Assembly (NCBI RefSeq): GCF_006345805.1
Contig: NC_043000.1
Location: forward strand, 43,462,001-43,526,000
Length of the DNA stretch: 64,000 nt
Direction: 5' to 3'
DNA from: Octopus sinensis
Taxonomy: Eukaryota
Position numbers and translations under genes: made by a program. Below are positions 1 to 43,645 of this stretch, in pieces. Positions within the stretch are counted from its first letter, which is position 1. Each line of letters opens with the position of its first letter. The notes below the pieces were generated by a model. That model had not been told where the DNA came from, made no database searches, and saw nothing but the letters and a program-made list of their open reading frames with translations.

Positions 1-510
1 AAGGCGATGGCCTCATGGAGCTAATAAGCGGTCAGCTTTATTCTTATTTTTATAAGAATGCCATATTAGTATGGCGATAACTAATATTTTCCGGGAACGC
101 TGCCGTTGTTCTCTTTTAGAGAGACTTAGTAATTTTAATATTTCTATTATTGAAAACAAGTGGATGTATTCCACCGAAGCTAGGAAAATAAAACCTTTGA
201 ACAGAGATTGTCAGAAGCGACACCTACTGGTTTGGCTACGCTGCATTGAAAAGGGGCAATACCCCGAAACGCGTCTGTAGCTGCCGGCCAAGTAGTGTGG
301 AGCGACTGACCTCCCTTGTTCAAAGGTTATATGGATACAGTTGTGTATCAAATAGCTAACTTAAGGCGATGGCCTCATGGAGCTAATAAGCGGTCAGCTT
401 TATTCTTATTTTTATAAGAATGCCATATTAGTATGGCGATAACTAATATTTTCGGGAACGCTGCCGTTGTTCTCTTTTAGAGAGACTTAGTAATTTTAAT
501 ATTCCTATTA
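1..510 (+). repeat. Partial tandem repeat, 362-bp period (PLE pseudo-LTR or retrozyme-like unit)
   Basis: Bases 1-~150 (aaggcgatggcctcatggagc...) recur almost identically from 363 to ~510, then run into (TA)n; the unit contains an HHR motif. Confidence 0.85.
241..280 (+). ncRNA. Minimal type-I hammerhead ribozyme (U3-A8 variant)
   Basis: CTGCA-TTGAAAA-GGGG caata CCCC-GAAA-CGCG-TC-TGTAG: stem I 241-245/276-280, stem II 253-256/262-265, palindromic stem III ACGCGT, GUC triplet ending at 275. Confidence 0.8.
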
Positions 511-929
511 TATATATATATATATATATATGTGTGTGTGTGTGTGTGTATTAGTATTTTCACACACACACACACACACAAACATATATGTAATACATAA
601 GTTCGATCAGTAGGGCAGTAAAATAAGAAATTTCATAACTAATATATCGAGCTAAATTAAAAGCTACATTAAAGTGGATATGCGATTATTATGCCCTCGT
701 ACTTTCTAGCAGTCAACTGAGTTGCGAACGGCATCCTAAAAAGACTTTGAAACTTATTCAATTCTACTTTTTATGCCAGTGAATACATCGCATAATCTTA
801 CTTGGTGTATATTATCTTATGCTCAAATATAAACGCCGACCGGGAGAACAAGAGAGCTGTAAGAAGTGGCCATGTTATAAAAAAGTTATAAAATACATTT
901 ACATTGCCTCTAGATTTTTCTCTCATGGA

Positions 930-2830
930 GAAACATTATGCTATAAATGCCTCTTTATCTGCCAACATGTATATGAATTGGTACTTGCATTCATATAACA
1001 AAGATACGTACATACATATAAAATAGCCAGATCACTTTTGCTAAAAATTACAGCCCAGTATGTTAGAACATCATGTACAACATGTACACTGGGTGCCTCA
1101 ATCTGTTCTTACTGGATCATTGTACCACCAACAACATTATAACACCTGAGAAAGATAGAGGTAGGAAGGATATAGGGAGCTGTATAAAGCAGTTCCTAAT
1201 TAACAAAATGAATTAGGAAAACAAACAAATTGGAATGAAATCTGGACGGAGTCCATACGTGGATTATTGGTAATAAAACGTTGAAGAGTCGTGCCACCCT
1301 CTGAAAATCTAAACACCAGCGGTTTATCAAGACAACCGATACAGCCAGGTGACAGCAATAGGTATCTAGGACAAAATGTCAGAGATGATGAACCTGTAAA
1401 TAAGGAGAGGACAAGGAATGAAAACCTCAGAAGGGTAAAGATAATATGCTCATTAGAACTCTCAGCTTACAACAAGCATATTACTCGCAACCCCATTGCC
1501 ATGTCTGTGCTCACGCCTAACTGGCCACTACAAGAATTCAGTGAAATCGATGTTATGACTCGCCAGCTGTTTACACGAAAATACAACATGAATATGGTGG
1601 TATAATTCCCACGCAAGGATAGTGGTTGTGTCGCAAATCTTTATTGATGTCATATGAAGCACGTATTGTGATACTGTAACAACATATGCAACAGAAGATA
1701 GGGACCAGTAATTATCCTTCGCCAAGTTGCAGAGCTTAAAAAGTAAAACAGCCACCATCAAATCAACACTGTAATTAGGATAGATAAGGAACGTAAGGAG
1801 AGTCAGGAAATAAGTACTGATACGGATCTATCCTCAAAGAACATTGGTAAAATCTATTAATCAGAAGAACAAAATAAAAATGGACCGGTTCACTGAGAAG
1901 ATAGTAGATAATTATATGGTACTTAAAACACATCCCATATGAGGATTGGTTATATAAAGCGATTGGCATAGATTACCGACAAATTTATGGCATTCCACTA
2001 CCCCCATGTAATTCAAAGCAAGATATCCCCAGCATGTAACAGAAAACATTGGCAGACAACAAATGTAGTTTGCGGAAGATAATGATCGAAGACATTAAAC
2101 TAATTATTGCCAACAACGAGAGATGTTATTATCTTATCATGAAACATGATGCGGTAGTCAGAACAGAAAATACCTACAGACGAAGTTGACCATATTGAGA
2201 CCGTGACCCGACGTTTCTTCTGAGGTCATTTGTTCAACATCACTTCGCCCATGTCTTTTGGTCCGACAGCCTTTTGTCCGATGATTTTTTATCCAACGAC
2301 ATTTTGTCGAATTTTCAATAAACCCTTTAGAAATGAAGGTGAACATCAAAATGAAATAATCATTGAGAATTTTATCAATAGGTTTTGTCGTTGGACAAAA
2401 GAAGCCTCGTACAAAAAGCAGCCTCGGACGAAAAGATGTAGTCGAAAAGACGTTTGACGAAGTGACGTCGGACGAAAAATCATAGCACCTTAAAATACAA
2501 CCGTCAAATTATTGCTGCTTGTGATCTCAGGGAAAATATTTTCGGTATTGGAAATCAGTTGCATTCTGGACACCAACGTGGTGAGAAAAATACTATAGAA
2601 AGAGGACATATATGGACATATAAGGAGTTTGCAAATCCAGTACCCAAATCTACTTTTAGTTCATAACTATTATCAACGGAGCAACGCAATACGTGCCAAT
2701 CTGTTTGGAGCAAAGTATCGCTGAATTTGATATTTTGGGGAGAGAGCACAAATCCTTAATTAATACGCTACAAATGATCACGATATCTGGGGCTATAAAA
2801 ATGTGCAAGACTTCATTAAGATTCAGACGA
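930..2830 (+). mobile_element. Heavily decayed R4/Dong-like (RLE) non-LTR retrotransposon fragment
   Basis: ORF 1291-1605 has RYLGQ...NENLRRVKIICSLELSAYNK (RT thumb-like); near 2050-2160 ADNKCSLRKIMIEDIKLII and YYLIMKHDAVV resemble a decayed CCHC plus RHD motif. Boundaries approximate. Confidence 0.55.
2205..2490. mobile_element. Fold-back MITE-like element with ~15-bp subrepeats in inverted arms
   Basis: Left arm has tt(c/t)gtccga-like units and right arm tcggac(g/a)aa-like units, around an AT-rich spacer. Confidence 0.55.
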
Positions 2831-2974
2831 TGATGATTAAAGCAAAGTTCTTTCCTTCATTACCTTGCTCCTCTGTAGGTTGTCGGTCAAAAATAATTCG
2901 AAAATAATAAGTAAGAAACTAACATACATGTATACATATATACATCGCTACCAACCTACTTACGTACGAACGTA

Positions 2975-3200
2975 CGTACCTGCCTTTCTGCCTTTCTGCC
3001 TGCCTTTCTGCCTGCCTTTCTGCCTGCCTTTCTGCCTGCCTGCCTGCCTGCCTGCCTGCCTGCCTGCCTGCCTGCCTGCCTACCTACCTACCTACCTACC
3101 TACCTACCTACCTAATTAACTAACTAACTAACTAACTAACTAACTAACTAACTAACTAACTAACTAACTAACTAGCTAACTACGTATCTACCTACCTATC
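2975..3200. repeat. Compound tetranucleotide microsatellite (CCTG)n-(CCTA)n-(CTAA)n
   Basis: Directly visible. Confidence 0.95.
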
Positions 3201-41660: not shown

Positions 41661-41948
41661 TAATATTTTATGTTGAGAAAAGGAAGCAGTCAGATTTTTG
41701 AATAATTCTTTATTAGCACTTTCGTTCCTTTATCGACCTCGGCAAGACAAAATCAAAATCAAAATAGTAAAAACAGAACGTTCCGTTGTTCATTTATATA
41801 AATCGGATGTTTTTTTTTGCTCTGTTTCGAAGAGGGGACGAAATGTTTTTGTTTTGTTTTGTTTTTGAAAAAAAAATAAGAGAGAGAGAGAGAGAGGTTT
41901 CAGGACAATCAGGAAAAAAGACGAAAAATAATAAGAATGGGGAAAGGG

Positions 41949-41989
41949 TAGATAGATAGATAGATAGATAGATAGATAGATAGATAGAT
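41949..41989. repeat. (GATA)n microsatellite
   Basis: Directly visible. Confidence 0.95.
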
Positions 41990-43597
41990 TTTCAATTTGA
42001 TGTGGTCAATCGATTGAAATTTCATTGCAAGACATTTTTGTCTTTCTTTCGTTTTGCTTTCAATTGTTAACATATTTGTAAATACACACATTTTTTCACA
42101 AGGGCTGGTGATCTTTCAAGATTTCAACTATAAGAGTAGGACTGGAAAGATATGAAAAGAAGGAAGGGTGCGGTTATCACTGAAAAATAAAACAAATTTC
42201 AAATTTCAAAGTCCTATCAAAATCAGTATTCCTTAACATGTCCCACATGGAATTATAAATCCTATATTCTGTGTAGTTTCATGTTTTGCATGAAAAAACA
42301 TTAAATTTTAGTACAACATTCATAAATTAGGAAAATAAACTCAGAATATGAAAAACTAATTTGGTACTGTTTACAGTTCAAACTGATCTCTATGTACATT
42401 TAATCATACATCATGATGAGTTTTGTATTAATATGTATATTGTATATTTAGCTGGAAGCCACTTTGTAGAATATAAATAATGAAAAAAAATAGCAGGGTT
42501 GCTTAAATATATTTTTGAGTATTTTTCAACCTCTTGTGGGATTTATCTTTATTTTTCTTGTTTGCTTCGATTAGATAATTCGAAAGCGATCTTTTTCCCA
42601 AATTGCTTTGCCAAATAGCTACATTATATATCTTTCTTAATCAATATGAGGAGTTTTTGGCAAAAGGCAGGAAATAAGGTGTATAAAGGGACATAGCAAA
42701 ATGAAAATAATAATGTATAAAGTTTTTATCGTTGTAGTTCCATTATTCAAGGAATGTAGTATGTAGAAGTGGTAGCAATGCTTCTTGTCCGTGGCATGTA
42801 AATTTTGAAAAGCATCCGATTCATATAAACGGACAACGAAACGTTCTGTTTTTATGATTTTGATTTTGATTTTGTTTTGAAGAGTTCGATAAACGAACGA
42901 AAGTTCAAATGAAGAATTATCCAAAGTTCTGTCTGCCTCACTTTTCTCTGTCTGTCTGTCTGTCTCTCTCTCTCTCTCTCTCTCTCTCTCTCTCTGTGTA
43001 TATATATATATATATGTATATATATATATACGCATATGATATATATAAGCTAATATCAAACAGGGAGAAAAAGTTCACAACACCGCAGTTGTGGCTACAA
43101 TGTTTTATTTGTTGTTTAACAAGTCTACTATTGGTTTCATGTATTTGTCTCACCAACTATCAAATCTACCTAATGGGTCGGACGAGTACCGACGTTCCTT
43201 GTTCCAGGCTTGATAATAGCTGAAATCGCACGGAATAAAACCAATGGTAGCGTTGATAATCCGATAATCGACAAATAATATATATGTATGTATATATATA
43301 TATATATATATATATATATATAAGGTATAAGTTAGAGGTGTTAAGCCCTCTAAGTGTTTGAGGTATCCAGAGGCACTCCTGGTGATTACCTCCGTAAGTA
43401 TGGTCTTTGGTATAAGGTATACGGCAACAGGTACTTTAAAGATGTAAACCGTAGTTTAAGGTATATATACACGATCAGAAAATGGAGGTAAAACAACAAA
43501 TAGAAGTGTACCATTGGTGCTAAAAAGCCATTATTTAATTAGTTAAGTAAGGTGAAGGTAAGAGTGAGTTTACAGATGTTACTGTGTACCATATTGA

Positions 43598-43645
43598 CGT
43601 CAATAAGTATTTACCTCGTTGCAAATTGTAGAGGTCGTCAGAACG
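43598..43645 (-). ncRNA. Degenerate hammerhead-like motif in a (TA)n-flanked block (43323-43871)
   Basis: Minus strand: CGTT-CTGACGA-CCTC...GAGG-TAAA-TACTTA-TT-GACG; G12 replaced by U. Confidence 0.45.

What the first reader, a model, noticed from the sequence alone, without database searches (positions are those of the whole stretch)
241..43645. Six unrelated hammerhead-bearing blocks, all next to (TA)n arrays
Seen: HHR-like folds at 241-280(+), 4388-4476(-), 21869-21918(-), 32053-32097(+, mirrored), 32757-32808(+) and 43598-43645(-). Their stems differ completely but share CUGANGA/GAAA topology and a tiny stem III. Each host block abuts a (TA)n run, and only one is attached to an RT remnant. 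Inference: a diverse set of PLE termini or non-autonomous retrozyme-like elements that target or generate (TA)n arrays, at about one per 10 kb here. HHRs in PLEs are known; this family diversity and microsatellite linkage may be undescribed for this genome.
Basis: partly seen in the sequence, partly recalled or inferred. Interest (0 to 1): 0.75.

Follow-up and report, generated by a model that had tools for sequence, protein, structure and literature searches.

The report
Six Penelope retroelement ends with hammerheads
The six hammerhead-like folds are the tail ends of six different families of Penelope-type jumping genes and their short derivatives, five of which insert into TA repeats; this is already described for the group, and one family is published with the same ribozyme motif, so the finding is largely ordinary.

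Summary
All six sites belong to dispersed repeat families whose majority sequence folds as a minimal type-I hammerhead. Four end protein-coding Penelope-like elements (PLEs), not one: three Hydra-type (4388, 21869, 43598) and one young Neptune/Nematis-type (32053). The 21869 family matches published Hydra-1_Obim, listed with this hammerhead and (TA)n preference (PMC8557442 supplement). Site 241 is a non-coding 363-bp tandem retrozyme; site 32757 is a tRNA-headed short element. Five families end in (TA)n in 67-83% of copies, against 8-10% background; the tRNA-headed one does not (1 of 30), so that neighbourhood is chance. All six show PLE head-to-head arms with one long and one short end. Cleavage was not tested. 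The best extra is outside the window: a young Tx1-like LINE sits at one position of the retrozyme in 37 of 39 copies examined, by independent insertions. I found no paper on this, but the scan noted it before on other DNA, as it did tRNA-headed PLE ends. Verdict: new members of known kinds.

The parts
1..508 (+). F1: right arm of a two-armed array of a 363-bp non-coding hammerhead monomer (non-LTR retrozyme); full monomer 147-508; the array and its inverted arm continue left of the window
240..281 (+). F1 type-I hammerhead, U3-A8 core, palindromic helix III; predicted cut after 275
509..530 (.). (TA)n at the long 3' end of F1
4217..4253 (.). (TA)n at the long 3' end of F2
4254..4645 (-). F2: 5'-truncated 3' end of a Hydra-type PLE; hammerhead 4388-4476
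21766..21832 (.). (TA)n at the 3' end of F3
21833..23820 (-). F3: decayed Hydra-clade PLE matching published Hydra-1_Obim; broken RT and GIY-YIG frames; hammerhead 21869-21918
31745..31804 (.). (TA)n at the short end of the F4 insertion
31805..32273 (+). F4: head-to-head pair of 3' ends of a young Neptune/Nematis-type PLE; arms 31805-32011 and 32013-32219, 54-nt tail 32220-32273; hammerheads 32053-32097(+) and 31927-31971(-) with A9>C
32274..32306 (.). (TA)n at the long end of the F4 insertion
32659..32865 (+). F5: 5'-truncated copy of a ~300-bp tRNA-headed element with PLE-type ends; hammerhead 32757-32802; not TA-targeting
43278..43322 (.). (TA)n at the long 3' end of F6
43323..43863 (-). 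F6: 5'-truncated 3' end of a Hydra-type PLE; decayed hammerhead 43568-43644

Best explanation
The six motifs are minimal type-I hammerheads at the 3' ends of six unrelated repeat families, four of them protein-coding Penelope-like elements and two of them short non-coding elements likely moved by Penelope proteins, and five of the six end in (TA)n, likely because the GIY-YIG endonuclease cuts there. Shown: family membership, the coding links, the TA-abutting ends, the two fixed 3' ends per family and the head-to-head arms. Inferred from work on Poseidon of Anolis (PMC11167929): the RT-endonuclease protein nicks both strands of AT-rich DNA and starts reverse transcription at two internal points of the RNA, so one arm ends at the long point and the other at the short point. 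The offsets here are about 25-30 nt (F5), 54 (F4), 56-60 (F1), 70 (F3), 100 (F2) and 140-150 (F6). Premature stops leave mostly short terminal pieces, which is why isolated hammerheads are dense. Inferred, untested: the hammerheads cut tandem transcripts as dimers through the palindromic helix III; they may be dispensable for insertion.
For: Families of 278-3425 first-look candidates each (40 scored per search), and 36,172 for F5 by peptide. PLE protein matches upstream in sense: F3 30 of 30, F4 15 of 30, F6 7 of 30, F2 1 of 30; a second F2 search gave endonuclease and hammerhead block colinear in 8 of 20 loci. An open 1044-aa frame with RT, C-X4-C-X2-C linker and GIY-YIG precedes F4 in L181. 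CxCX5C linker in F2 and F3, DKT in F3, CxxC..E in F2, F3 and F6, as defined for Hydra. F3 protein and hammerhead read nearly the same as Hydra-1_Obim (by eye, against 28, 41, 95). (TA)4 just past the end: F2 24/30, F3 22/30, F4 25/30, F6 20/30 (window copy included), F1 30/36 outer ends; background 7.5% (60 nt) to 9.8% (90 nt). One long and one short end in 14 of 15 two-armed F1 arrays; 16 of 16 inverted F4 arms end at 206-211 against 261. F1 dimer fold through helix III.
Against: F5 does not fit the TA pattern (1 of 30; 2 of 49 long ends). No coding partner was found for F1 (0 of 30 loci) or F5 (71 loci with duplicates; no protein relative), so their dependence on PLE proteins rests on insertion anatomy. 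Three window copies are decayed. F4 has a non-canonical core and F6 only a 3-bp stem I. Tails of 54-150 nt exceed the 30-40 bp in print. Searches score only the best 40 candidates, which favours full, young copies; the F4 query forced the long end on the main arm. Clades are assigned by motifs, with no tree.
Confidence: 0.9

Rival explanations
1. The elements generate the (TA)n arrays, by adding TA at their 3' end or seeding expansion, rather than targeting existing arrays.
For: TA runs flank both outer ends of two-armed insertions; ends carry TAT/ATAT microhomology; the window holds 53 (TA)6+ runs.
Against: Some copies end at the same points without any TA. Inside F1 arrays the monomer continues past the end point with non-TA sequence. 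The published reading is insertion bias.
Confidence: 0.1
2. The motifs and their TA neighbourhood are chance products of an AT-rich, microsatellite-dense window.
For: 19.9% of non-TA window positions lie within 271 nt of a (TA)6 run; only 2-3 of the six pass my descriptor; true for the TA link of F5.
Against: Descriptor counts exceed all 100 shuffles; family majorities restore complete motifs with different stems; 67-83% TA-abutting ends against 8-10%.
Confidence: 0.02
3. F5 is not a stand-alone SINE but the terminal repeat of a coding Penelope/Poseidon element that carries a tRNA-derived (Pol III) promoter; the short copies are its truncations.
For: A frame opening with ATG just before the hammerhead runs to the element's end (L185), as the Poseidon ORF starts in its hammerhead; two ends 25-30 nt apart; earlier scan notes say this for a similar unit in this genome (unchecked).
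Against: No coding neighbour in 71 loci, including 11 picked for longer open frames; the Poseidon-type family I sampled has a different hammerhead; many copies start sharply at the tRNA head. My protein queries could miss a distant partner.
Confidence: 0.45

Closest known systems
Hydra-clade PLEs, notably Hydra-1_Obim (Craig et al. 2021, PMC8557442; seen: passages, section 11, supplement rows)
   Same: C-terminal GIY-YIG, CxCX5C linker, DKT, canonical hammerhead at the 3' end, (TA)n insertion in almost all families. F3 matches Hydra-1_Obim in protein and hammerhead.
   Different: F2 and F6 are other families (endonucleases 23-33% identical to each other and to F3), with long branched stem II, 6-nt palindromic helix III, long 3' regions and tails of about 100 and 140-150 nt.
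Neptune/Nematis PLEs (CX2-5CxxC linker, microsatellite bias; PMC8557442 passages)
   Same: F4 has the linker, a C-terminal GIY-YIG, inverted arms, a tail at one end and TA insertion.
   Different: A9>C in the hammerhead core of all 30 copies seen; 54-nt tail; Neptune versus Nematis not resolved.
Minimal hammerheads of metazoan PLEs (Cervera and De la Pena 2014, PMC4209133; seen: parts 1-2 of 4)
   Same: U3-A8 variant, extra base between 9 and 10.1, short helix I, palindromic helix III, many heterogeneous families per genome, opposite-strand pairs.
   Different: G10.1-C11.1 is kept only in F1, F4 and F5; A9>C is not described in the parts read.
Animal non-LTR retrozymes (PMC7229834, passages; bioRxiv 10.64898/2026.07.22.740005, part 1 of 5 and passages)
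   Same: F1: non-coding ~360-bp tandem monomers with one type-I hammerhead each, proposed to derive from PLE termini.
   Different: F1 arrays are two-armed with long and short ends in (TA)n, a link I did not see in the passages read; circular RNA not shown here.
Schistosome SINE-like hammerhead elements (review PMC6765202, passages)
   Same: F5 joins a tRNA-like A/B-box head to a hammerhead.
   Different: F5 is dispersed with PLE-type inverted arms and two ends, not tandem; its driver is unidentified.
Target-specific Tx1-clade LINEs: Tx1L in Tx1D, Keno in U2, Tx1-Mar in Mariner-N4 (PMC4494074, passages)
   Same: A two-ORF APE-RT LINE inserting at a fixed site of another repeat, with a 16-17-bp duplication and tandem copies around one duplication.
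   Different: The target is a hammerhead retrozyme, 10 nt upstream of stem I; the Tx1 label is from domain layout and recall, no tree.

Membership tests
Minimal type-I hammerhead (PLE type) | YUGANRA and GAAA boxes with 3-8 pairing, U-H site, three helices in type-I order | tested here: met
   Family majorities of F1, F2, F3, F5, F6
Minimal type-I hammerhead (PLE type) | A9 in the core (F4) | tested here: not met
   C at position 9 in 30 of 30 copies; the rest of the fold is intact
Minimal type-I hammerhead (PLE type) | Short palindromic helix III allowing a dimer | tested here: inconclusive
   Palindromic in F1, F2, F5, F6; F3 has a short ordinary hairpin; F4 has one pair round two bases; dimer fold computed for F1 only
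Minimal type-I hammerhead (PLE type) | Self-cleavage of the RNA | not testable with these tools
   No raw RNA reads were offered
EN+ Penelope-like elements (F2, F3, F4, F6) | PLE RT and/or C-terminal GIY-YIG frame upstream of the hammerhead terminus | tested here: met
   for F2 only the endonuclease end was seen
EN+ Penelope-like elements (all six) | Inverted 5'-truncated arm and a tail at one end only | tested here: met
   tail lengths 25-150 nt
Hydra clade (F2, F3, F6) | CxCX5C linker, DKT, CxxC/CxH round the endonuclease end, (TA)n insertion | tested here: met
   F3 all; F2 linker and CxxC; F6 CxxC/CxH only, linker not seen
Hydra clade (F2, F6) and Neptune (F4) | Placement in an RT tree with reference families | not tested
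   Reference proteins were not available as stored sequences
Non-LTR retrozyme (F1) | Non-coding tandem monomers, each with a type-I hammerhead | tested here: met
Non-LTR retrozyme (F1) | Expressed circular monomer RNA | not testable with these tools
   Only contigs were offered
tRNA-derived SINE (F5) | tRNA-like head with A and B boxes | tested here: inconclusive
   Both boxes visible in 18 aligned heads; relaxed ARAGORN gave mixed weak calls in 6 of 18; no Rfam hit at cut-off in 8 loci
tRNA-derived SINE (F5) | Independent of a coding element, tail shared with a partner LINE | tested here: inconclusive
   No partner of either kind found; the ends are PLE-type
Target-specific Tx1-type LINE (in F1, outside the window) | Fixed target site with duplication, independent insertions, zinc-knuckle ORF1 and APE-RT ORF2 | tested here: met

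The most novel reading that the evidence does not exclude
The F1 retrozyme is both a parasite of Penelope proteins and the fixed landing site of a young Tx1-like LINE, which inserts 10 nt upstream of the hammerhead at what may be the retrozyme's snRNA-type transcription start, borrowing its promoter and keeping the LINE nearly always full-length. Alongside, an actively spreading PLE family (F4) has fixed a core change (A9>C), and the six families offer a graded series of tail lengths (25-150 nt) with strict long/short pairing for testing how PLE proteins start reverse transcription. The targeting itself is well supported (about 0.9); the promoter part is weak here.
Probability: 0.35. Interest if true: 0.6.

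Novelty: new member of a known kind. Interest (0 to 1): 0.3.

Why it matters
As posed, the finding adds family annotations to a known picture: PLE ends with minimal hammerheads that insert into (TA)n. It is useful in three smaller ways. It gives near-intact young material (the F4 frame in L181, F1 arrays at 98-99% identity) to test what directs GIY-YIG cutting to (TA)n, which PMC8557442 names as open. The strict one-long, one-short pairing and tails up to 150 nt constrain the two-start model from Poseidon. The LINE-in-retrozyme targeting would be a target class I found in no paper searched.

Tried and rejected
Rfam scan of the window: listed rows were microsatellite and hairpin noise; 65 of 215 rows were not shown. 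Repeat finder swamped by microsatellites, apart from the F4 palindrome. Pfam missed the window's PLE remnants and gave only sub-threshold RT and GIY-YIG hits on better copies. Sequencing runs: no RNA holder listed, contigs only, so no reads were laid. Search for an F5 partner through a Poseidon-type endonuclease returned another family with its own hammerhead; the peptide search of the protein database found nothing, which is weak evidence. The shared flank of two F1 loci, first taken for an autonomous partner, is the inserted LINE. Co-amplification of LINE plus monomer as one unit was rejected for the five-copy C3 array: no shared private variants, and copies are as close to outside copies; a weak LINE-monomer correlation remains (Mantel rho 0.31, p 0.004, n 26). 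U2-type promoter test: a matrix from 8 distinct U2 upstream motifs puts its best plus-strand F1 site at -55 from the duplication start (U2: -54 to -58), but at 6.9 bits against a shuffled best of 5.2, and a stronger site lies on the minus strand over the target itself; inconclusive. Assembly artefact for the F4 palindrome rejected: 16 of 30 loci have such arms with varied junctions and a fixed end. Lunse et al. on dimeric PLE hammerheads was not held and was seen only as a reference title. Not-in-print searches: 'Tx1'+'retrozyme' 0 papers; Tx1/target/hammerhead listing; 'hammerhead'+'A9C'+'core' 0; SINE/tRNA/Penelope/hammerhead listings; octopus listings. The library lacks most subscription papers and Repbase, and the bioRxiv supplements were not seen.
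Full report
Observation. The window is AT-rich animal DNA with 77 tandem-repeat rows and 53 runs of (TA)6 or longer. All six sites exist. Each block was searched in the own genome and belongs to its own dispersed family, F1 to F6 in window order, with 967, 3425, 278, 1110, 2346 and 639 first-look candidates; 40 were scored and 30 loci kept per search. The blocks share no blastn match better than E 0.21. Alignments restore a type-I hammerhead in every family. F1 has the U3-A8 core. 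F2 and F6 have a long branched stem II, a six-base palindromic helix III and a UA site. F3 and F5 are canonical at family level but decayed in the window. F4 has CUGAUGC, that is A9>C, in 30 of 30 copies. A descriptor finds 4 (strict) or 8 (relaxed) sites against 0.14 and 0.32 in 100 local shuffles, but only 2 and 3 of the six pass, and 2 of the 8 lie in an A/T satellite. The family alignments are the stronger evidence.

What the hosts are. Six-frame searches of the flanks show PLE protein upstream and in sense for F3 (30 of 30 loci), F4 (15 of 30), F6 (7 of 30) and F2 (1 of 30). A targeted F2 search then showed endonuclease and hammerhead block colinear in 8 of 20 loci. F4 ends a young element with an open 1044-aa frame holding RT, a C-X4-C-X2-C linker and GIY-YIG, the Neptune/Nematis layout. 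F2, F3 and F6 show Hydra-clade marks. The supplement of Craig et al. 2021 lists Hydra-1_Obim from an octopus with (TA)n preference, a hammerhead that reads nearly as the F3 majority and a protein that matches the F3 fragments by eye. F3 is therefore a published family or its direct counterpart. F1 has no long frame and no PLE neighbour in 30 loci; it is a 363-bp monomer in tandem arrays, a non-LTR retrozyme. F5 is about 300 bp with a tRNA-like head, an (AAT)n spacer and the hammerhead; a peptide search gave 36,172 candidates. No coding partner was found in 71 loci that include duplicates. Earlier scan notes propose that such a unit is the terminal repeat of a coding Penelope element; I could neither confirm nor exclude this.

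The TA link. (TA)4 follows the family end in 24, 22, 25 and 20 of 30 loci for F2, F3, F4 and F6 (within 60 nt, 90 for F3), and at 30 of 36 outer ends of 21 F1 arrays; background is 7.5% and 9.8%. F5 scores 1 of 30 and 2 of 49 long ends. In the window its copy begins 73 nt from the array and points away from it. So five families are TA-linked and one is not. The paper that defined the Hydra clade states that almost all its families insert into (TA)n and ties this to the linker; it also names microsatellite bias for Neptune and Naiad elements.

Insertion anatomy and mechanism. Every family has two fixed 3' ends. In F1, 14 of 15 two-armed arrays have one end at 362 and one near 303; the exception is cut by a LINE. 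In F4, all 16 inverted arms end at 206-211 against 261. Offsets are about 100 nt for F2, 70 for F3, 140-150 for F6 and 25-30 for F5, and most head-to-head pairs are long plus short. [quoted passage not shown] In vitro, the Poseidon protein nicks both strands of AT-rich DNA and starts reverse transcription at two internal RNA sites that bound the tail; its hammerhead cuts only with protein and is not needed for insertion. I infer the same here. Hammerhead cutting of tandem transcripts as dimers is the standing model and fits the palindromes and the F1 dimer fold, but it was not tested, and no raw RNA reads were offered.

A LINE that targets F1. Two F1 arrays held a 5.35-kb LINE with a zinc-knuckle ORF1 and an endonuclease-RT ORF2. 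Of 40 listed copies I examined 39. In 35 the 3' end is followed by F1 from about position 68, in 2 by the same short duplication and another LINE copy, and 2 truncated copies lie elsewhere. Thirty full-length 5' ends sit directly behind F1 position 83, giving a 16-17-bp duplication, and one 5'-truncated copy joins the same site. The same LINE haplotype occurs in different F1 subtypes, and five copies in one array share no private variant, so insertions are mostly independent. The window's own array carries no LINE. Target-specific Tx1 elements in other transposons are known; a retrozyme target gave no paper in my searches. The scan had noted this before in this genome and others and suggested an snRNA-type start site. 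My test was inconclusive: right spacing, weak score.

Verdict. What is added is four unlisted families as far as I could check, long tails with strict pairing, an A9>C core in a young family, and an independent check of the LINE targeting. Interest 0.3.

Noticed in passing
L290:2071-7421 and 38 further copies: Young two-ORF APE-RT LINE inserted at one position of the F1 retrozyme with a 16-17-bp duplication; nearly all copies full-length.
   Followed up: yes
window 34000-35763 (-): Older, broken Neptune/Nematis-type PLE remnant, about 45% identical in protein to F4; no hammerhead end located.
   Followed up: partly
   Followed up: partly
window about 54545-54590 (-): Further minimal hammerhead candidate with a 7-bp stem I and no helix III, directly behind a short TA run; no relative among fetched loci.
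   Followed up: partly
window 24966-27017 (-): Remnant of an unrelated LINE with an RVT_1 match (E 4e-25).
   Followed up: no
window 10920-11294 (-), 13186-14031 (+), 16423-16794 (-): Fragments that look like Tc1/mariner transposases (weak HTH and Transposase_1 hits; label partly recalled).
   Followed up: no
window 9260-10211: A/T-rich satellite with a 125-bp higher-order period.
   Followed up: no
window 32302-32501, 49460-49621, 53177-53376, 40029-40208, 53422-53601: Copies of abundant short repeats that also end beside (TA)n; the array next to F5 abuts one of them.
   Followed up: no
L219-L248: Another abundant PLE family (Poseidon-like by recall; 1135 candidates) with its own compact hammerhead about 300 nt after the stop.
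   Followed up: partly
L193:4250-5500: The F2 3' region is about 1.7 kb long and AT-rich, with no open frame of 100 aa passing my filter; origin unknown.
   Followed up: partly
L357-L375, 44-60 nt upstream of U2: Conserved ATCAGT motif upstream of 19 of 20 U2 loci, a likely proximal sequence element.
   Followed up: partly
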